Virus record (IMG/VR): IMGVR_UViG_2623620497_000001
Span: 1 to 5,745 of that record
DNA length: 5,745 nt
Origin: a virus
Taxonomy: Duplodnaviria; Heunggongvirae; Uroviricota; Caudoviricetes
Reading direction: 5' to 3' (one strand)
Shown: positions 1-5,745 of the stretch, piece by piece
Position numbering within the stretch: position 1 is the stretch's first letter
Layout of the letters: each line of letters starts with the position of its first letter
The notes under the pieces: model-generated
The model's input: only the letters and a program-made list of their open reading frames with translations
What the model was told of the DNA's origin: nothing
Database searches by the model: none
Made by a program: the position numbers and the translations under genes

Positions 1-266
1 ATCCCGTTTTTCCCCACCACCCGTTCTTCCAGCTTGTCAAATACACCAATGACCAGATCGTGGTTGTTATCAAGGTAACGGGCCTGCTCACGTAACGACA
101 CGGCCCCGTACTGGCTTAACTGGTCGGCAGTTCGGTTCTCCCGTCGGGCTTTGTGTGTCCGCGTCGTTTTTACGGCCTCATAAGCCTGAATCACCGCACG
201 GGAACGCAGCCTTGCCGCTTTCCATCCTGGTGAAAAAACGCCAATCACATCATCAAGAATTGCCAT
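1..266 (-). CDS. Phage portal protein (lambda-family), N-terminal 88 codons; gene continues past the window start
   Basis: Minus-strand ATG at 266-264 shares the A of the upstream gene's TGA stop (268-266). The frame stays open to position 1 (MAILDDVIGVFSPGWKAARLRSRAVIQAYEAVKTTRTHKARRENRTADQLSQYGAVSLREQARYLDNNHDLVIGVFDKLEERVVGKNG...). It occupies the slot after the terminase and gpW genes, which is where lambda-like phages place the portal gene. The call rests on gene order; the family was not recognised from sequence. Confidence 0.55.
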   Translation of the reverse strand, partial: MAILDDVIGVFSPGWKAARLRSRAVIQAYEAVKTTRTHKARRENRTADQLSQYGAVSLREQARYLDNNHDLVIGVFDKLEERVVGKNG

Positions 267-484
267 CAGAACCTCGCCAGCCGGTACCCGGGATGCCCCC
301 GTCGTCGTGTAATCAGAGCCGCAAGGCGGCGCTCCCACTCCTGCCGTCCCTGCCGGATCTCAGATAAGTTTTCCATGGTCATCTGCTGACCATTAAAAGT
401 GACGGATTTTCCGTCCAGCACCGCCATTTCAGCTTCCGTATAACGCTGAATCATGGCTTCAATATCATTCTGATTCATAACCAT
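266..484 (-). CDS. gpW-like head-tail joining / head completion protein
   Basis: 72-aa ORF immediately after the large terminase, overlapping its 3' end by 10 nt. Its size and the C-terminal RRRGHPGY motif resemble what I recall of lambda gpW (about 68 aa, C-terminal RRRGPAGF). Confidence 0.65.
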   Translation of the reverse strand: MVMNQNDIEAMIQRYTEAEMAVLDGKSVTFNGQQMTMENLSEIRQGRQEWERRLAALITRRRGHPGYRLARF

Positions 485-2577
485 CCTCCGGAAGTCAGCC
501 AGGGGTTAACATCGTCAGTTACTGTTTTCTTCCGTTTTTGTTTTTTAACAGGCGTGGATACCGGCTCCGGTGAGGGTGACGGTTCGGTACTGTCCGGGAC
601 ACACTCCAGCCAGGTTTCCCGGCTCGCCCACTCCGGTGCATCCGGCCAGCGGATCTTTTCGTATCCATGCAGAATGACCAGCGCCTCGGCATACACCATC
701 AGGTCAAAAGCTTCGTTGGCACCGCGACCCGGCTTACTCCATTTCCCGTCACTGCTCCGCTCTTCATACGTCAGTTCGTCGTAAAACCAGCTCCCCAGCC
801 AGTCAGGGAAATGCACATAGCCTGGACCTGGCGAGTCACGCCATAACGCGTTATTCACCCGGTCTTTCAGGGCATCCGTCTGAAGAAGCCAGAGCGGCAC
901 ATCACCTGCGGCCTGCGCCCGGCGGCCCGTTCGTCCGGTGTTATCAGGGAATGTACGGCTGATCAGTTTTGCGCGCCGGATGCTGTCGCCCTTAAACAGG
1001 TAAATACGTTTACCAAGGCCATCACGACGGCAACGACGCCAGAATTTATAGGCATTATCAGTGACCCCGTCTTCACCGCCGGAATCCACCGCCATTGCCA
1101 TCAGTCGCATTTGTTGAGAAGGATCGGAGGCCAGCGGCCAGCTTTTATGAAAAACATCCGTCAGCAGGACATCCCAGTCTTCCGGATAGCTGGCCGGATC
1201 AATTCGCTGGCTCTCCCCGTCGCTGTCACCGCGCAATGACTGCGTGATGTTGTAACGATCAATAATCCAGCGTTCGCCACGGCTGCCATAGCCCGTTACC
1301 TGAACCACAAAACGGCGATGACGTCCCGCCTGCACATCAACTGTCGCCACCAGGAAATTAACGCCATCCGGCACACTGCGGGAAGGAACTGGCTCTGCCC
1401 GCTGCTCAAGCAGTTCACTTTTTCGTTGCTCCATGCTGGCACGGGGAAGATAAGGTAATCCCCAGTCGGTATTGATAACCGTCTTGAGTGTTTCTTCACT
1501 TCCGGTTGTCTCGTATTCCTGTTCTGCAGTAAGCAGTTTGTAAACGAGTTGCGAGAGTGTCTGGTAAGCAGCTGCCGGACCCTCCATCCAGAATGACGCA
1601 ATACGTGAGCGTCGGGGATCACCATAACGACTGCCATCCGCATTGATGGATTCACCATCCCGCAACCAGACCCCACGTCCGTTCAGCTCACGTTTTTGTT
1701 CAGGCATAATCCGTCCTGAACAGGAAGGACACTGAATATAAGCCGCCTCACTTGCCAGCACGGGATCGGCAATATCACGGAAACCAGCAACCACATCGCC
1801 GCAGGGCTGAAAATACTCACCACAGTGTGGACAGGGCCAGTACCAGCGACGGCGATCGCCACGGTTATAGAGCGACAGTATCCCCGTGGTTGGTGGAGCC
1901 TCATGCGGTGAAGTCCGTCGCCATTTCACATCCTTCACATCCCTGCCGGGGGAACTCTCCACCAGCGTCATACCACTGGACATAAATGTGGTGGTACGTT
2001 TTGAGGCAAGAGAGAAGGCATCCCCCTCGCCATCAATATCTTCCGGAAAACGGTCATAATCCGTCAGCGCCACGCATTTATAATCTGATGAGGACATGAT
2101 ATTGACTGACGGCCAGCCGATTTTCAGGTAGTTGCCAGCAAGGAATGTTCTGTCATAAACGTTGTTGTCATTTTTGTTCGGACTCAGGCGACTGACCACT
2201 TCCGGGCTGACGCGAAACGTTCTGGCAAGTCGTTTTTTGGAGTGTTCGCGGGCTTTTTCCTCCGTCATCTGAATGATCAGCATATCAGCAGGATCGCAAA
2301 TCACATTGTAAATCACCCAGCCGTCAATCAGGCCGATAGTCTTGCCAGTTCGTGCCGGGCCAACAAATATCACTGCGTCGTATTCACGCGAGGCCAGGCA
2401 GTTCATCGGCTCAATAACATACGGTGCCACCAGCGGATCCCACGGGACTGAATTCCCGGCCCCCATGGGCACCCGCATATACTGAGCAACGGCATCAGCA
2501 ACCAGCATTCGTCTCGGTGCGCGAAGGATATAACCTGAATCGGTTCGTGCTGCCTTTGCGGTTTCCTGATTCAGCAT
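475..2577 (-). CDS. Terminase large subunit, lambda GpA family
   Basis: 700-aa ORF with a Walker A-like P-loop VGPARTGKT near the N-terminus and a CPHCGEYF motif resembling CPHCGEEQ of lambda gpA. Its ATG shares a base with the stop of the upstream small-subunit gene (TAATG at 2575-2579). Confidence 0.9.
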   Translation of the reverse strand: MLNQETAKAARTDSGYILRAPRRMLVADAVAQYMRVPMGAGNSVPWDPLVAPYVIEPMNCLASREYDAVIFVGPARTGKTIGLIDGWVIYNVICDPADMLIIQMTEEKAREHSKKRLARTFRVSPEVVSRLSPNKNDNNVYDRTFLAGNYLKIGWPSVNIMSSSDYKCVALTDYDRFPEDIDGEGDAFSLASKRTTTFMSSGMTLVESSPGRDVKDVKWRRTSPHEAPPTTGILSLYNRGDRRRWYWPCPHCGEYFQPCGDVVAGFRDIADPVLASEAAYIQCPSCSGRIMPEQKRELNGRGVWLRDGESINADGSRYGDPRRSRIASFWMEGPAAAYQTLSQLVYKLLTAEQEYETTGSEETLKTVINTDWGLPYLPRASMEQRKSELLEQRAEPVPSRSVPDGVNFLVATVDVQAGRHRRFVVQVTGYGSRGERWIIDRYNITQSLRGDSDGESQRIDPASYPEDWDVLLTDVFHKSWPLASDPSQQMRLMAMAVDSGGEDGVTDNAYKFWRRCRRDGLGKRIYLFKGDSIRRAKLISRTFPDNTGRTGRRAQAAGDVPLWLLQTDALKDRVNNALWRDSPGPGYVHFPDWLGSWFYDELTYEERSSDGKWSKPGRGANEAFDLMVYAEALVILHGYEKIRWPDAPEWASRETWLECVPDSTEPSPSPEPVSTPVKKQKRKKTVTDDVNPWLTSGGWL

Positions 2578-3068
2578 TACTCCTCCTGCTGTAATTCCTC
2601 CTCATCATCCGCACCTGCTTCGGTCACCCGCAGGGCTATCTGATCGCGCAGATCATCAATAATGGACTGAACACGGCTCACAGCGGCAGGCTGCAGGCCG
2701 CAGTCACGTTCCAGAATATCCGGTAATGTCTCCAGCACCTGCACGACCGCTTTTGCCCAGATGGCAAACTCCCGTCTGACATCACTGGCCGGAATGAGTT
2801 GTGCCGTTTCCTGTTCGAACTTAAGACGCTCACGTTCAGACTGATACCAGGCTTTGCGTTCATGTGGATCCATTTCGCCCTCAGCAACCGGCGGTGGTAA
2901 CCCCATAAATTCAGTCAGAATATCGGTCAACCGATATAGCTTGAGTTTGTCATGTCCACCAGCGGGACGAATGTTTTTCAGTCTTGCCACGACAGTCTGG
3001 CGGTGCAGACCAGATAAAGCCGCCAGTTGATTAATATTCAGCACCAAGTTTTTCAACTCATGATCCAT
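2577..3068 (-). CDS. Terminase small subunit, Nu1-like (N-terminal helix-turn-helix)
   Basis: 163-aa ORF directly upstream of and coupled to the large terminase. The N-terminus (LVLNINQLAALSGLHRQTVVARLKNI) has an HTH-like pattern as in lambda Nu1, and the C-terminus is acidic. A GGAGG Shine-Dalgarno lies 4 nt upstream of the ATG at 3068. Confidence 0.8.
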   Translation of the reverse strand: MDHELKNLVLNINQLAALSGLHRQTVVARLKNIRPAGGHDKLKLYRLTDILTEFMGLPPPVAEGEMDPHERKAWYQSERERLKFEQETAQLIPASDVRREFAIWAKAVVQVLETLPDILERDCGLQPAAVSRVQSIIDDLRDQIALRVTEAGADDEEELQQEE

Positions 3069-3123
3069 ATTTCCTCCGGAGAGCTTTAAACATGCATCGT
3101 GCGAACAACTTTAAGAAAACGCG

Positions 3124-3157
3124 TTCGATGTCGAACAAAAACCGCTCAATTCGACAT
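3124..3157. promoter_or_regulatory. Putative cosB-type terminase/IHF binding repeats
   Basis: ATGTCGAA (3128-3135) and TTCGACAT (3150-3157) form a perfect 8-bp inverted repeat with a 14-bp spacer. A third TTCGA half-site is at 3124-3128 and A-tracts follow. It lies between the putative cosN and the small terminase start, where lambda has its R elements and IHF site. Confidence 0.3.
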
Positions 3158-3230
3158 ACAAAAAACAAATAACCATTAATAATCAATAAGATGCAAAGAT
3201 GATGGTGGCCGATAAAAATGCAAAAACTAG

Positions 3231-3262
3231 CCTTTTTCCGCGACGCTCCCGCCCCGTGGTAG
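3231..3262 (-). other. Putative cosN (cohesive-end nicking site)
   Basis: Minus-strand 5'-CACGGGGCGGGAGCGTCGCGGAAAAAGG-3' resembles, from memory, the lambda cos junction ...ACG|GGGCGGCGACCTCGCGGG... . The presumed nick is about 186 nt upstream of the small terminase ATG, close to the roughly 190 nt I recall for lambda Nu1. Confidence 0.35.
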
Positions 3263-3362
3263 GCAACCCCGCCGGGAGGACCCATAAGAAAACACAGGTC
3301 CGACCGCCGTTTTGAATTCTCTTCTAAACGACTCTAGTTTGATTTGAGTATGCAATACGCGT

Positions 3363-3387
3363 AAAAAAGCCCCGCATAGGCGAGGCT
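3363..3387 (-). terminator. Rho-independent terminator downstream of the peptidase gene
   Basis: Minus-strand 5'-AGCCUCGC CUAU GCGGGGCU UUUUUU-3': an 8-bp GC-rich stem with one G-U wobble, a 4-nt loop and a run of six U. It starts 18 nt after the TAA stop at 3408-3406. Confidence 0.6.
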
Positions 3388-3405
3388 GGAATCAGACAGG
3401 GGGGA

Positions 3406-4308
3406 TTAAGACTGGATATTCCAAATCATTGCGTTACCGTTATGATTTTCAATGATTTTTGCCAGTGGTGCTCCACCAAAAGAATGCATGTAGCTGTGAT
3501 GTATAGTCAAAACCAAATCTTGAAGTACTTGATCACTTTCAAGTTCGGTAACATTCAACCCAATTTTCTGCGCCTTATCAAAATGAATATGACGCGAGTG
3601 GGTATAGGTTGTGTGATGGTTGTTTAACTCTGAACAAACATGTGTTGCTTTTGATTCTGCCTCAGGATCATTATCAAACATGCCTGTCATAAGCCAATGC
3701 TTAACAATCTCATTTGCCCATTTGATTGCTTTCTCACACTCGCCGATGATCGTCGGGTTTAGCTTTTGAAGAATGAACTGCCACATCTGAACAGCTGCGG
3801 GATTTTGAAAAATTTCCGTCTGCGCACGATTCCATTCTTCAATGATGGCATGGGTGGAGAAACCGTTGAACTGAGGATCAATTGGGCCAATGTTGGACTG
3901 TTTACCCATGATGATTTCATTGGCACAACATGCAAGCATAGTTCCGCAGGACATTGAAATCATAGGAACAATTGCTCTGATGTTAGTTCCAAACTTCGAC
4001 CTTAAGTAATGCCCGATTGATTCCAAAGCGGCAATATCACCACCTGGAGTATGAAGTATCAAATCCAACCCTTTTGATACATCTAAACCATTGATGGCTG
4101 TCATCAACCCGTTCTTATCATCATCAGTCATCTGAGTAAGATGGCGTACTTCTGCACCACCATGCTGTAACCACCCTGAGTAATATGTGATTACATTTCT
4201 TCCAGTATGATTCGAAAGTTGAGATAAGTATTTACGGCGAACCTCATCCATAGGACTTTTATGGGCGAGAGCCGTTATCTCGCCCAGTACGTCGCTCCAA
4301 TTAGGCAT
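3406..4308 (-). CDS. ClpP/crotonase-fold serine peptidase, SDH (serine dehydrogenase proteinase)-like
   Basis: 300-aa ORF. The segment DLILHTPGGDIAALESIGHYLRSKFGTNIRAIVPMISMSCGTMLACCANEIIMGK aligns by eye with the ClpP core (..[48 protein letters not shown]..), placing a Ser at the nucleophile position. The gene sits in an AT-rich block unlike the flanking phage genes. Its ATG (4308-4306) is 3 nt after the stop of the upstream small ORF and has no Shine-Dalgarno of its own, implying translational coupling. Confidence 0.7.
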   Translation of the reverse strand: MPNWSDVLGEITALAHKSPMDEVRRKYLSQLSNHTGRNVITYYSGWLQHGGAEVRHLTQMTDDDKNGLMTAINGLDVSKGLDLILHTPGGDIAALESIGHYLRSKFGTNIRAIVPMISMSCGTMLACCANEIIMGKQSNIGPIDPQFNGFSTHAIIEEWNRAQTEIFQNPAAVQMWQFILQKLNPTIIGECEKAIKWANEIVKHWLMTGMFDNDPEAESKATHVCSELNNHHTTYTHSRHIHFDKAQKIGLNVTELESDQVLQDLVLTIHHSYMHSFGGAPLAKIIENHNGNAMIWNIQS

Positions 4309-4311
4309 AAA

Positions 4312-4512
4312 TCAGTACGTGTAAAGTTGATGACTTGTAGTTTGGTTTTGCTTCGATTGTGTAGCGGTACCTTGTGAGTACCAAACACCTGTGTTTCCAC
4401 TCGTACTAGTTTGCTGTGCCATTACACGAGAAGCGAAGTTGTTAACAGTTTCACCAGTCAACATTTCTGCCGGTTTGATATTGTAAACATCGTAGAACTC
4501 AGCTGGGGTCAT
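4312..4512 (-). CDS. Small hypothetical protein (66 aa) with polar low-complexity C-terminal tail; first gene of the moron operon
   Basis: ATG at 4512-4510 is preceded by AAGGAG with an 8-nt spacer. The C-terminal half is rich in Q/T/S/N (QQTSTSGNTGVWYSQGTATQSKQNQTTSHQLYTY). It is tightly linked to the peptidase gene. No family was recognised. Confidence 0.55.
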   Translation of the reverse strand: MTPAEFYDVYNIKPAEMLTGETVNNFASRVMAQQTSTSGNTGVWYSQGTATQSKQNQTTSHQLYTY

Positions 4513-4520
4513 AATGATAG

Positions 4521-4600
4521 CTCCTTTTATAGCGCTACATATAGTGCCTGTGCTAAGGGGGACATACTATATGTGCCATTGTTGTCATATTTAAATGTGC
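4521..4600 (-). promoter_or_regulatory. Putative promoter/operator region of the moron operon
   Basis: AT-rich leader immediately upstream of the small ORF. A candidate -10 TATAGT (minus strand) has a weak -35-like TTAAAT 17 nt upstream. A perfect 9-bp inverted repeat ACATATAGT (4537-4545) / ACTATATGT (4566-4574) overlaps the region. Promoter assignment is tentative. Confidence 0.3.
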
Positions 4601-4621
4601 AAAAAGCCTCAAAAGAGGCTT
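4598..4621 (-). terminator. Hairpin with U-tract (weak intrinsic terminator or insulator) upstream of the moron
   Basis: Minus-strand 5'-AAGCCUC UUUU GAGGCUU UUUG-3': a 7-bp stem, 4-nt loop and five U counting the last two stem bases. The plus-strand version is followed by GAAAAAG, so it would act only on the minus strand. Confidence 0.35.
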
Positions 4622-4882
4622 GAAAAAGATGCAAAAATACTATCTATGACGTGACTATAGCTACTTACCCACAGTTTATACAAGCCAAAAATGCTAAATT
4701 CAGATAATCCTATTCGCTGAAAAACTACACAAAAGCTACGTTCATCTTGTCATTAGATAACGTCAGTAACTTTCACTAGATCTAAGCCATTGGTGAAAAA
4801 GCTAATTGCATGATGAAGCACTGTAATGTAGCAGTTGAGGTTGTTAAATGAGAATCACCCTAACAATGTCAACGGACATTAT

Positions 4883-5419
4883 TCATTTTCGTAACTTCTC
4901 AATCTCTCGTATACCCGCCAGGTTATTGTTGCCCTTCTCAATAACAGCCAGCAAAGGTTCAATCCAGAGGACGGCCTGGCAATACGTCATTGAGCTGGCG
5001 GCAGCGGTACTATCATCGGTTGCGTTAGTGTTCCCGGTATCGGGGTGCATTGCGCTGGCACGTAAACGGTACGCGTATTTGAGCAGCCCACCAGCGACAT
5101 CAGCAGGAACAGGCAGATCACAGGTCTTTTCACGTCGGAGAATCTCCCGGTATTCGATGACAGTTTTCTCAGTACCGGCATCGATCAGCGAGTTAAGGCG
5201 GTTGGCGTTCTCTGCTATCTGGTTAAACCGATTGAAGTTGAAAGCCTGTGTAGTTATCACCGTCGCCTGCAGCGCGTTATCATTACGTAATACCCGATTC
5301 TCACTCTGTTCTGTTTCAAGAGCTGAGCGGCTACGAACCAGTAATACGCTAAGCACTGCAATAATGATTACGACAGCCACCAGCAGAACCGCAACAATCG
5401 TAATTTTTCTGGGTTTCAT
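4883..5419 (-). CDS. Rz: Rz-like i-spanin (type II inner-membrane lysis protein)
   Basis: 178-aa ORF whose ATG shares a base with the endolysin TGA stop (TGATG at 5417-5421). It has an N-terminal transmembrane segment (ITIVAVLLVAVVIIIAVLSVLLV) followed by a charged periplasmic domain, and it contains an embedded out-of-frame lipoprotein ORF. Confidence 0.75.
   Translation of the reverse strand: MKPRKITIVAVLLVAVVIIIAVLSVLLVRSRSALETEQSENRVLRNDNALQATVITTQAFNFNRFNQIAENANRLNSLIDAGTEKTVIEYREILRREKTCDLPVPADVAGGLLKYAYRLRASAMHPDTGNTNATDDSTAAASSMTYCQAVLWIEPLLAVIEKGNNNLAGIREIEKLRK
4987..5181 (-). CDS. Rz1: Rz1-like o-spanin lipoprotein embedded in Rz in another frame; true start probably the internal GTG near 5133
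   Basis: The ORF lies entirely inside Rz in a different frame. It has a lipoprotein signal with lipobox (VKRPVICLFLLMSLVG|C) followed by a short proline-rich mature part (CSNTRTVYVPAQCTPIPGTLTQPMIVPLPPAQ), which is the classic Rz1 signature. Confidence 0.6.
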   Translation of the reverse strand: MPVLRKLSSNTGRFSDVKRPVICLFLLMSLVGCSNTRTVYVPAQCTPIPGTLTQPMIVPLPPAQ

Positions 5420-5745
5420 CAGAATACCCCCGGAACTGATACCGGAATGCCTGGGTTAAGCGGCCCGAGCCCATCACCAAGAACCTGAGGTTTTTCTGCC
5501 CACAGGCAAACTTCACGCTCAATCTCACGACGAGTCATCAGGCCTTTCCATTGCTTACCGCCAGCGTATATCCAGCGACGTAGCTGGTCACATGCGCCTT
5601 TGATATCGCCCTGGTTTATTTTGCGAAGAAGCGTCGATGTTCTGAAATTGCCAGCACCCACGTTGTAGACGAACGAGTAAAGAGCGCCGCGCGTTGTTTC
5701 CGGTATATCGACTTTGATGTACGGGTTAATTTGTCTGGCAACCGT
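5419..5745 (-). CDS. Phage endolysin (lysozyme, GH24 T4/P22-type), C-terminal part; gene continues past the window end
   Basis: The minus-strand frame is open from the window edge: [58 protein letters not shown]..., which matches what I recall of enterobacterial prophage lysozymes. It is immediately followed by Rz/Rz1. The Met at 5661 in the ORF track is an internal GTG, not the start. Confidence 0.8.

What the first reader, a model, noticed from the sequence alone, without database searches (positions are those of the whole stretch)
3363..4625. AT-rich two-gene moron (small protein + ClpP-fold SDH-type serine peptidase) inserted at the Rz-cos junction: candidate anti-phage or accessory system
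Three things mark this block as acquired cargo. (1) Composition: hand counts of sample 60-mers give about 40% GC at 3961-4020 against about 65% at 601-660 in the terminase gene. (2) It is a self-contained unit with its own strong Shine-Dalgarno, two coupled ORFs and a clean intrinsic terminator. (3) It sits between the spanin gene and cos, where lambda carries the bor moron. From memory, a candidate defence system made of a hypothetical protein plus an SDH_sah-domain protein was recovered by functional selection in E. coli and is listed in DefenseFinder as FS_HP_SDH_sah; I cannot verify homology here and its mechanism is, as far as I know, uncharacterised. A peptidase paired with a tiny low-complexity partner suggests a protease-triggered or abortive-infection mechanism.
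Basis: partly seen in the sequence, partly recalled or inferred. Interest (0 to 1): 0.85.

Follow-up and report, generated by a model that had tools for sequence, protein, structure and literature searches.

The report
Prophage moron: small protein plus SDH protease
A self-contained, AT-rich two-gene unit (a 66-residue protein coupled to a ClpP-fold serine protease) sits as acquired cargo at the right end of an E. coli lambdoid prophage; the same pair occurs all over Bacteria, probably as a protease-based defence or accessory module whose mechanism is unknown.

Summary
The block has 41% GC against 54% in the packaging genes. It has a strong Shine-Dalgarno, two coupled ORFs and a clean terminator, and it lies between the spanin genes and cos. 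Close phage relatives keep both flanks but lack it. Comparison with other prophages puts the mobile unit at 3363-4773, about 150 bp further upstream than reported. That extra stretch holds a conserved sigma-70-like promoter and a structured leader.

The 300-aa protein matches PF01972 and models as a ClpP/SppA fold. Ser120 aligns with the ClpP nucleophile. The 66-aa ORF is a real gene (dN/dS about 0.1), yet RefSeq leaves it unannotated in the identical E. coli copies.

The main new result is that a 55-80-aa ORF abuts or overlaps the protease gene in 76 of 80 loci from very diverse bacterial phyla. No third gene is conserved. In Enterobacterales the pair moves between three prophage cargo slots.

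I read it as an autonomous protease module whose small partner is the protease's substrate or inhibitor, most likely used for anti-phage defence. Neither defence nor DefenseFinder FS_HP_SDH_sah membership could be tested here. Overall it is a new member of a known but uncharacterised kind, of moderate interest.

The parts
3363..4773 (-). Whole mobile cassette (moron): promoter, structured leader, small gene, SDH protease gene, terminator
   Evidence: blastn shows that prophages with different lysis and packaging modules share exactly window 4773..3363 (94% identity; L008-L015) or 4732..3362 (80%; L005-L007). GC is 0.41 against 0.54 in the flank.
4654..4683 (-). Cassette promoter P1: -35 TTGTAT (4683-4678), 18-nt spacer, -10 TATAGT (4659-4654)
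   Evidence: The -35 and -10 blocks are conserved while the spacer varies in 9 cassettes from E. coli, Mangrovibacter, Enterobacter, Proteus, Klebsiella and Yersinia. Activity was not tested. The scan missed it because the -35 matches only 3 of 6 positions.
4599..4621 (-). Leader hairpin HP1: AAGCCTC-TTTT-GAGGCTT followed by a U run, terminator-like, downstream of P1
Evidence: 7 pairs, 4 of them with compensatory changes, 95% of cells paired.
4534..4577 (-). Leader hairpin HP2 / inverted repeat (CACATATAGT ... ACTATATGTAG), just upstream of the Shine-Dalgarno
   Evidence: 9 pairs, 3 of them compensatory, 95% paired. RNA structure versus DNA operator is not resolved. A weaker promoter-like site (TTTAAA-18-TATAGT, 4595-4566) overlaps its first arm.
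4521..4526 (-). Shine-Dalgarno AAGGAG of the small gene
   Evidence: Read directly from the sequence; 8 nt before the ATG at 4512.
4312..4512 (-). Small partner gene, 66 aa (MTPAEFYDVYNIK...QLYTY)
   Evidence: dN/dS is 0.09-0.15 against orthologues. It matches phrog_25714 at 4e-44. It always lies directly upstream of the SDH gene. AF2 gives two N-terminal helices (pLDDT about 75) and a disordered stretch at residues 38-66 that still contains invariant Y45, S46, Y64 and Y66.
3406..4308 (-). SDH-type ClpP-fold serine peptidase, 300 aa, no transmembrane segment or signal peptide apparent on reading the sequence (no predictor was run)
3949..3951 (-). Codon of Ser120, the predicted nucleophile (M-S-C-G-T)
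   Evidence: The profile alignment places it on the catalytic Ser of ClpP (GMAASMGT) and of 1510-N. It is invariant in 21 diverse homologues.
3363..3387 (-). Intrinsic terminator that closes the cassette
   Evidence: 8-bp stem, 6 GC pairs, 4-nt loop, T-run. Cassette homology ends here.
4883..5419 (-). Context: Rz i-spanin gene with embedded Rz1 (5181-4987), the upstream border of the slot
   Evidence: ORF list. Annotated Rz/endopeptidase in related phages.
3244..3255 (-). Context: cosN-like GGGCGGGAGCGT, the downstream border of the slot
   Evidence: Phage records mEp460_4F5 and cdtI begin at window 3259 and 3254. The similarity to lambda cosN is from my memory.

Best explanation
This is an autonomous two-gene protease module carried as a moron by temperate phages. 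It is probably transcribed from its own promoter through a structured, terminator-containing leader. A strong Shine-Dalgarno drives the 66-aa protein, and the SDH protease is made by translational coupling, so the small protein should be in excess.

I propose that the small protein is the protease's dedicated partner. Its folded N-terminal half would dock on the enzyme. Its conserved but disordered C-terminal half (GVxYSxGT ... LY(S/T)Y-COOH) would occupy the substrate groove as a substrate or pseudosubstrate and keep the chambered ClpP-fold enzyme occupied or shut. Infection by another phage would disturb this pair, for example by shutting off synthesis of the small protein or by titrating or modifying it. 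The very conserved protease would then be free to cleave a conserved cellular or phage target, which blocks phage production in a toxin-antitoxin-like, abortive-infection manner.

Shown here: the anatomy, the gene coupling, the fold and nucleophile, purifying selection on both genes, conservation of the pair across phyla, mobility between prophage slots, and dispensability for the phage. Inferred: expression in the lysogen, physical interaction of the two proteins, the inhibitor or substrate role, the trigger, the target, and the defence phenotype.
For: - The pair is the unit. In 76 of 80 loci from very diverse bacterial phyla an ORF (median about 68 aa; true length about 55-80 aa once the 5' over-extension of the naive ORF caller is allowed for) abuts the SDH start, and 68 of those 76 overlap it or lie within 15 nt. 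A sense ORF of at least 50 aa is present in 78 of 80 loci, against 25 of 80 on the antisense strand.
- No third gene is conserved.
- The rates are asymmetric. SDH keeps 50-55% identity across phyla with dN/dS 0.01-0.03. The small partner evolves 3-5 times faster and is barely recognisable outside Enterobacterales. This is the usual pattern for a conserved effector paired with a fast-evolving sensor or antitoxin.
- The small protein has a folded N-terminus and a disordered C-terminus that nonetheless holds invariant residues.
- The protease looks competent: ClpP fold, and Ser120 aligns with the ClpP nucleophile.
- The unit is autonomous. It has a conserved promoter and terminator. It sits in three different prophage slots, including one opposite in strand to the tail genes in Proteus.
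- It is dispensable. Sequenced relatives deposited as phage genomes lack it.
- Outside phages, the immediate neighbours include type I and type ISP restriction enzymes, BrxL, DruE, HEPN, PLD nucleases, integrases and IS elements.
- From memory only: DefenseFinder lists an HP + SDH_sah pair as experimentally protective.
Against: - There is no functional data of any kind here.
- PADLOC has no hit, and DefenseFinder membership could not be run.
- The neighbour enrichment for defence genes is only rough (about 10% of 126 neighbours) and has no formal background.
- In the same prophage slot the neighbouring genes are sometimes counter-defence genes (Acb2/Tad1-like).
- In the window the cassette lies inside the late transcription unit, so late lytic expression is equally possible.
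- A terminator-like hairpin between promoter and genes would limit expression in the lysogen.
- 4 of 80 SDH genes have no adjacent small ORF. That argues against strong toxicity of the protease on its own.
- Homology of the Enterobacterales small protein to the distant partners is weak (hhalign P 0.0025, probability 12%).
- No complex model could be made.
Confidence: 0.5

Rival explanations
1. Counter-defence. The cassette is a late-expressed phage protease that destroys a host immunity protein or signalling component. The small protein would act as its chaperone, adaptor or temporary inhibitor.
For: - In the window and in most Enterobacterales copies it lies in the late operon, downstream of Q or of the lysis genes and on the same strand.
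- Acb2/Tad1-hairpin anti-CBASS-like genes are neighbours in the same slot.
- A leader terminator (HP1) would be read through by Q-modified polymerase. This follows from established lambda biology and is an inference here.
Against: - The pair is widespread outside recognisable phages and lies next to restriction, BREX and Druantia genes.
- It has its own conserved promoter.
- In Proteus it is on the opposite strand to the tail operon, at the prophage end.
- An enzyme this conserved across phyla is unexpected for a protein aimed at fast-evolving defence proteins.
Confidence: 0.15
2. A selfish toxin-antitoxin-like or lysogen-fitness module with no role in phage defence. The protease and its labile small partner would simply stabilise the element, or would adjust host physiology in the way bor and lom do.
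For: - The layout is that of a small upstream gene coupled to a downstream enzyme, with the upstream partner evolving faster.
- It occupies the slot used by the serum-resistance gene bor.
- Its distribution is sporadic and points to horizontal transfer.
Against: - The small protein is acidic and shows no sign of a DNA-binding antitoxin domain (sequence).
- Orphan SDH genes exist.
- Many TA-like modules on prophages turn out to be defence systems, so this rival overlaps the main explanation.
Confidence: 0.15
3. Peptide maturation. The small protein is a precursor that SDH cleaves to release a bioactive or signalling fragment, for example one that regulates lysis-lysogeny or acts as a toxin.
For: - The C-terminal half is disordered and carries invariant short motifs that could be cleavage sites.
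- A ClpP-fold protease without an unfoldase partner is expected to act only on unstructured peptides (established knowledge of ClpP and SppA).
- The solved SppA structure has C-terminal peptides bound in its active sites (PDB 4kwb title).
Against: - The small protein has no signal peptide or hydrophobic segment.
- No exporter or receptor gene is conserved nearby.
- The small protein's sequence is poorly conserved between lineages.
Confidence: 0.08
4. A morphogenetic protease of the phage itself, acting in head maturation or scaffold removal. This is the outcome the reader named as refuting.
For: There are weak similarities to head-maturation protease families: phrog_53 at 6e-5 and NF045542 at 20.9 bits against a cut-off of 120.
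Against: - Close relatives with the same packaging and head genes lack the cassette, and those relatives encode their own C/Nu3 head protease.
- The cassette lies outside the morphogenesis module.
- It occurs next to four different terminase types.
- It also occurs in non-phage loci.
Confidence: 0.02

Closest known systems
DefenseFinder candidate system FS_HP_SDH_sah (hypothetical protein + SDH_sah-domain protein; from memory, taken from Fillol-Salom et al. 2022, Cell 185:3248, on defence systems carried by phage-inducible chromosomal islands)
   Same: The architecture is the same: a small hypothetical protein next to a PF01972 (formerly SDH_sah) protease. Both are carried on mobile elements of Enterobacteria. 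A 2026 paper reports DefenseFinder SDH_sah hits in oral phage contigs, and Porphyromonas phages do carry 45%-identical homologues of this protease.
   Different: This copy is on a lambdoid prophage, not on a satellite island. Matches to the DefenseFinder profiles and the protection phenotype could not be tested. To my knowledge no mechanism has been described for that system either.
ClpP, SppA (MEROPS S49) and NfeD/1510-N self-compartmentalising serine peptidases
   Different: Sequence identity is only 10-17%. There is an extra C-terminal helical half (about residues 150-300) with no solved counterpart. There is no membrane anchor and no AAA+ partner gene. The proposed catalytic order is Ser-Asp-His (Pfam description, from memory) rather than the Ser-His-Asp of ClpP or the Ser-Lys of SppA and 1510-N. 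The NCBIfam SDH equivalog cut-off is not reached (96 bits against 250).
Lambda bor and other morons of lambdoid phages (Hendrix/Juhala concept)
   Same: It occupies the same Rz-cos slot (in EC14 next to bor itself). It has its own promoter and terminator, a deviating GC content, and a presence/absence pattern among relatives.
   Different: The cargo is a cytoplasmic protease pair, not a lipoprotein. It is transcribed in the same direction as the late operon, whereas bor is opposite. It carries a structured leader.
Protease-based abortive infection, e.g. Lit of prophage e14 (cleaves EF-Tu when triggered by the T4 Gol peptide), and type II toxin-antitoxin modules
   Same: It is prophage-borne, with a protease as the likely effector. 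A small, faster-evolving upstream partner with a disordered C-terminus recalls an antitoxin.
   Different: The protease is unrelated in fold (Lit is a zinc metalloprotease; from memory). No trigger or target is known. The small protein shows no DNA-binding features.

Membership tests
DefenseFinder FS_HP_SDH_sah | A protein carrying the SDH_sah / PF01972 domain | tested here: met
   PF01972.22 at E 8.4e-23, 81.2 bits against a gathering cut-off of 31.3, covering residues 22-255.
DefenseFinder FS_HP_SDH_sah | A small hypothetical-protein gene adjacent to the protease gene on the same strand | tested here: met
   The 66-aa ORF ends 3 nt before the SDH start. This holds in all Enterobacterales copies examined and in 76 of 80 distant loci.
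DefenseFinder FS_HP_SDH_sah | Both proteins score above threshold against DefenseFinder's own HP and SDH_sah profiles | not testable with these tools
   DefenseFinder models are not among the libraries. PADLOC-DB 2.0 gives no hit for either protein at E up to 1.
DefenseFinder FS_HP_SDH_sah | Protects cells against phage when expressed | not testable with these tools
   This needs an experiment. The source paper is not held in the library.
SDH-type ClpP-fold serine peptidase (PF01972 / NCBIfam NF047768) | ClpP/crotonase fold | tested here: met
SDH-type ClpP-fold serine peptidase (PF01972 / NCBIfam NF047768) | Nucleophile Ser at the position of the ClpP catalytic Ser | tested here: met
   S120 aligns with the Ser of ClpP GMAASMGT and of 1510-N AASAGT. 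It is invariant in 21 homologues.
SDH-type ClpP-fold serine peptidase (PF01972 / NCBIfam NF047768) | Asp and His completing a Ser-Asp-His triad | tested here: inconclusive
   Invariant D144, H237, H240, H270 and H271 (and K136) exist.
SDH-type ClpP-fold serine peptidase (PF01972 / NCBIfam NF047768) | Reaches the NCBIfam equivalog cut-off | tested here: not met
   NF047768 scores 95.9 bits against a cut-off of 250. It is therefore a divergent subfamily, even though RefSeq names it 'SDH family Clp fold serine proteinase'.
Moron of a lambdoid phage | Present or absent among otherwise collinear relatives, at a boundary between modules | tested here: met
   Relatives share window 1-3283 and 5499-5745 but carry a different, shorter insert. 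The same cassette sits in unrelated prophages.
Moron of a lambdoid phage | Own terminator and deviating base composition | tested here: met
   Terminator at 3387-3363. GC is 0.41 against 0.54.
Moron of a lambdoid phage | Own promoter, active in the lysogen | tested here: inconclusive
   The TTGTAT-N18-TATAGT element is conserved in 9 divergent cassettes. Activity was not measured, and a terminator-like hairpin follows it.
Phage head-maturation protease | Conserved, syntenic member of the morphogenesis module in relatives | tested here: not met
   It is absent from close relatives, and those relatives encode their own C/Nu3 protease. The hits to phrog_53 and NF045542 are far below family level.
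Type II toxin-antitoxin module | Small labile upstream antitoxin that neutralises a downstream toxic enzyme and autoregulates through an operator | not tested
   Only the layout, the rate asymmetry and the disordered C-terminus fit. Toxicity, binding and lability need experiments. The inverted repeat at 4577-4534 could be an operator or an RNA hairpin.

The most novel reading that the evidence does not exclude
The small protein and the SDH protease form a previously undescribed, pan-bacterial two-component protease switch. In this reading a rapidly evolving, intrinsically disordered 'bait' peptide plugs a ClpP-fold chamber that has no unfoldase partner, and phage infection releases the protease. 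That would be a new mechanistic class of protease-based abortive infection. In Enterobacterales it would be further gated by a conserved leader (promoter, terminator-like hairpin, second hairpin) acting as a transcriptional attenuator.
Probability: 0.2. Interest if true: 0.7.

Novelty: new member of a known kind. Interest (0 to 1): 0.45.

Why it matters
If the pair is a defence system, it is one of the few whose effector is a ClpP-fold protease, and nothing is known about how it works. This analysis gives the experiments a sharper starting point in five ways:
- the true unit boundaries (3363-4773, including a conserved promoter and leader);
- the real nucleophile (S120);
- an unannotated but selected partner gene;
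- the finding that the small partner is near-universal across phyla while evolving fast, which points to it as the regulatory or sensing half;
- invariant motifs (GVxYSxGT and the C-terminal LY(S/T)Y) to mutate.

It also documents one cassette moving between the Q-holin, Rz-cos and tail-end cargo slots of prophages. About 1.5% of complete E. coli genomes carry a variant, including the probiotic strain Nissle 1917.

Tried and rejected
- PADLOC scan of both proteins gave no hit.
- Literature searches on 'SDH_sah', 'PF01972', SDH with anti-phage or antiphage, PICI with serine dehydrogenase, the FS_* system names and 'Clp fold serine' returned nothing relevant. One paper merely lists a DefenseFinder hit.
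- The Fillol-Salom 2022 paper is not held. A PubMed id I recalled was wrong.
- Sequence search of the PDB with the single protein found nothing. Only the profile gave weak ClpP and 1510-N matches.
- An HMM of the Enterobacterales small proteins did not significantly retrieve the distant upstream ORFs (best E 0.087 in 76 sequences). hhalign was only suggestive.
- A simple motif, [YFW][ST]x[STGN][ST], is enriched (14 of 76 against about 2 expected) but is a subfamily feature, not universal.
- Rfam has no family for the leader.
- I considered a leader peptide in the 5' region and rejected it, because the short ORF is not conserved in L004.
- I considered stop-codon read-through fusing the two ORFs, which are in the same frame in the window, and rejected it because the frames differ in relatives.
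- I considered P1 being the phage's own late promoter pR' and rejected it, because the same element follows three different Q families and also occurs away from any Q gene.
- I considered DNA binding by the small protein unlikely, because it is acidic.
Full report
**1. What is in the window**

All genes run on the minus strand, in this order:
- an endolysin fragment;
- Rz (5419-4883) with embedded Rz1 (5181-4987), which has a lipobox;
- an AT-rich gap;
- a 66-aa ORF (4512-4312);
- a 300-aa ORF (4308-3406);
- a terminator (3387-3363);
- the cos region;
- a DUF1441 small terminase (3068-2577);
- a gpA-type large terminase (2577-475).

The phage is mEp460-like. Two phage records begin at window 3259 and 3254. 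A sequence like lambda cosN, GGGCGGGAGCGT, lies at 3255-3244; the comparison with lambda is from my memory.

**2. Checking the observation**

- Composition. A sliding window confirms a plateau of 0.37-0.45 from about 3300 to 4900, against 0.50-0.60 elsewhere. The cassette is 0.41 GC, and no window of the same size in the packaging region falls below 0.507.
- Translation signals. AAGGAG lies 8 nt before the first ATG. The second ORF starts 3 nt after the first one's TGA and has no Shine-Dalgarno of its own.
- Terminator. It has an 8-bp stem with 6 GC pairs and a T-run.

**3. It is cargo**

Phages vB_EcoS-569R4, phi458, PhiR47_1 and mEp460 share window 1-3283 at 96-99% identity. Some also share the endolysin end. 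Between those flanks they carry about 0.6 kb of unrelated small ORFs instead of this block.

Conversely, prophages with different holins, endolysins, spanins and four different terminase types carry the same block. They match exactly over window 4773-3363 at 94% identity, or 4732-3362 at 80%. The mobile unit is therefore 3363-4773. The upper boundary should move about 150 bp further upstream.

Forty-two of 5426 complete E. coli genomes carry the cassette at 99% identity or more, and 80 carry some variant. All copies are chromosomal.

More divergent copies (70-82% nucleotide identity) sit in three places:
- the same Rz-cos slot, next to bor in strain EC14;
- between the antiterminator Q and the holin, in Enterobacter, Yersinia and E. 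coli Nissle 1917;
- at the prophage end past the tail fibre, on the opposite strand, in Proteus.

This is the behaviour of a moron, not of a morphogenesis gene.

**4. The two proteins**

*The protease.*
- It matches PF01972 (81 bits against a cut-off of 31) and phrog_11747.
- It stays below the NCBIfam SDH equivalog cut-off (96 bits against 250), so it belongs to a divergent subfamily.
- A profile alignment places HTPGG on the ClpP oxyanion motif, and places S120 of M-S-C-G-T on the catalytic Ser of ClpP and 1510-N.
- S120 is invariant.
- D144, K136 and several His residues are also invariant. I could not inspect coordinates to assign the rest of the catalytic site.
- I see no transmembrane segment or signal peptide on reading the sequence; no predictor was run.

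*The small protein.*
- The ORF is a real gene. Its dN/dS is 0.09-0.15 against orthologues whose synonymous sites are near saturation.
- It has its own PHROG family.
- RefSeq nevertheless leaves it unannotated in all the listed identical E. coli copies.
- AlphaFold2 predicts two short N-terminal helices (pLDDT about 75) and a disordered stretch at residues 38-66.
- That disordered half contains most of the invariant residues of the Enterobacterales family: V43, Y45, S46, G48 and T49, and the extreme C-terminus LY(S/T)Y. Conserved residues in a disordered segment usually mark a binding or cleavage motif. This last point is an inference.

**5. The pair is ancient and general**

The protease family is very large. 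More than 8000 database clusters match, with 50-58% identity to homologues from very diverse bacterial lineages, including Bacillota, Nitrospirota, Planctomycetota, Actinomycetota, Bacteroidota and Patescibacteria.

I fetched 80 loci from different species and looked upstream of each protease gene.
- In 76 of them an ORF on the same strand ends at the protease start. The median length is about 68 aa, and the true length is about 55-80 aa once the 5' over-extension of my simple ORF caller is allowed for.
- 33 of these overlap the protease gene, 35 lie 0-15 nt away and 8 lie further away.
- As a control, a sense ORF of at least 50 aa is present in 78 of 80 loci, against 25 of 80 on the antisense strand.
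- No other gene family recurs beside the pair beyond small groups of closely related loci (at most 4 of 80).

The small partners diverge quickly.
- BLAST groups them into clusters of 14, 8 and smaller.
- Iterated HMM searches join 20 of them.
- The Enterobacterales type links to that group only weakly. The hhalign P-value is 0.0025 and the probability 12%, although the alignment is collinear over 47 columns.
- A profile search of 1.84 billion representative proteins finds only about 10 true relatives.
- A motif of an aromatic residue followed by Ser/Thr-rich positions recurs near the C-terminus: VWYSQGT in the window, ISYSNTT in Nitrospirota, and VRYSTSAT in an unannotated ORF of Gordonia phage BeeGee. 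It is enriched but not universal.

Seven sequenced temperate phages of Shewanella, Porphyromonas and Gordonia also carry the protease in accessory positions.

Outside phages the immediate neighbours are heterogeneous. They include type I and type ISP restriction enzymes, BrxL, DruE, HEPN and PLD nucleases, integrases and IS elements. This is suggestive of defence islands. I could not compute a proper background.

**6. Expression signals**

The 260 bp upstream of the small gene belong to the cassette and are conserved in architecture across nine divergent copies. From 5' to 3' they contain:
- a promoter, TTGTAT-N18-TATAGT (4683-4654), with conserved hexamers and a variable spacer;
- about 30 nt further on, a hairpin followed by a U run that looks like a terminator (HP1, 4621-4599);
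- a longer hairpin or inverted repeat (HP2, 4577-4534);
- the Shine-Dalgarno.

Ninety-five percent of cells pair, and 7 of 16 pairs show compensatory changes. This exceeds the shuffled controls (at most 1 of 500 for four of the five measures, 9 of 500 for the fifth) and every slid control. With nine sequences this is moderate evidence. A DNA operator would give a similar signal for HP2. Rfam has no matching family.

The same leader follows three different Q families and also occurs away from any Q gene. It therefore belongs to the cassette, not to the host phage's late promoter. I cannot say whether the leader attenuates expression in the lysogen or has another role.

**7. How it most likely works**

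The data support a self-sufficient module of two proteins. One is a very conserved enzyme. The other is a rapidly evolving, partly disordered small partner that should be made in excess. ClpP-fold peptidases without an unfoldase act on unstructured peptides; this is established for ClpP and SppA. The partner's disordered, motif-bearing tail is thus the obvious ligand of the protease, whether as substrate, pseudosubstrate or plug.

I also weigh the mobility between prophage cargo slots, the defence-like neighbourhoods elsewhere, and my recollection that DefenseFinder lists an experimentally protective HP + SDH_sah pair. Taken together, the most likely function is anti-phage defence by a toxin-antitoxin-like or abortive-infection route (confidence 0.5 for the overall reading, much lower for the individual steps).

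The rivals, with confidences, are:
- a late-expressed counter-defence protease (0.15). It is supported by the position in the late operon and by Acb2/Tad1-like neighbours;
- a selfish toxin-antitoxin or lysogen-fitness module without a defence role (0.15);
- maturation of a bioactive peptide (0.08);
- a morphogenetic protease (0.02), which the comparative data contradict.

**8. Comparison with what is known, and verdict**

The closest known entity is the DefenseFinder candidate FS_HP_SDH_sah. The domain and the two-gene layout match. Profile-level membership and the phenotype could not be tested, PADLOC has nothing, and the source paper is not held. I believe 'FS' refers to Fillol-Salom et al. 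2022 and not to 'functional selection', but that too is from memory.

The finding is real and correctly located. It is best classed as a new, prophage-borne member of a catalogued but mechanistically unknown kind. The useful additions from this analysis are:
- the corrected boundaries;
- the nucleophile assignment;
- proof that the small gene is real;
- the near-universal pairing across phyla;
- the partner's conserved motifs;
- the conserved leader.

Interest is moderate, 0.45.

Noticed in passing
L001 (NZ_CP031653.1) 8,100-18,300; breakpoint corresponds to window 1579: In E. coli UK_Dog_Liverpool the same prophage has its large terminase gene interrupted by a satellite-like island. The island encodes an integrase, an HTH protein, BRO-N, an Icd-like protein, a primase, SSB and a prohead-protease/capsid fusion. 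It also has its own DUF1441 small terminase, and that terS-plus-cos region is 73.5% identical to window 3292-2638. It looks like a cos-type satellite integrated into its likely helper's packaging gene.
   Followed up: partly
window 4534-4683 (minus strand): The cassette has a conserved 5' leader: a promoter (4683-4654), a terminator-like hairpin (4621-4599) and a second hairpin or inverted repeat (4577-4534). Both hairpins are supported by compensatory changes in 9 divergent cassettes. There is no Rfam family. Attenuator, short RNA or operator remain unresolved.
   Followed up: partly
window 4312-4512 (minus strand); NZ_CP025916 and other E. coli records: The 66-aa gene is under purifying selection (dN/dS about 0.1). 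RefSeq leaves it unannotated in all the listed 100%-identical E. coli copies, but the 70-82% variants have it annotated as a hypothetical protein.
   Followed up: yes
L005 6993-7274, L006 6882-7274, L011 9322-9558, L101 13573-13917: Genes with the Acb2/Tad1 hairpin domain (anti-CBASS/Thoeris sponge family) lie in the lysis-to-terminase cargo region of these prophages: beside the SDH cassette in L005, L006 and L011, but about 2.7 kb downstream of it, beyond the lysis genes, in L101. Putative defence and counter-defence cargo can therefore sit side by side there.
   Followed up: no
L112 (Gordonia phage BeeGee MW601219) about 3330-3503: An unannotated small ORF (...ALRLFNSVIKLAPAPTMAPRSHVRYSTSATR*) abuts gene 31, the SDH homologue. 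It carries the same aromatic-Ser/Thr motif as the E. coli partner.
   Followed up: partly
window 3244-3255 (minus strand): A cosN-like GGGCGGGAGCGT lies here, and two related phage genome records start within 5 nt of it. Homology to cassette-free relatives ends at 3283. The 79 bp from 3284 to 3362 belong neither to the cassette nor to the shared packaging module.
   Followed up: partly
L108 (E. coli Nissle 1917, NZ_CP022686) 8994-10112: The probiotic strain Nissle 1917 and its engineered derivatives carry a 70%-identical small-protein/SDH pair between Q and the holin of a lambdoid prophage.
   Followed up: no
window 4309-4314: In the window the small ORF and the SDH ORF are in the same reading frame, separated only by TGA TTT. 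Relatives use other frames or overlaps, so read-through fusion is unlikely to matter.
   Followed up: yes
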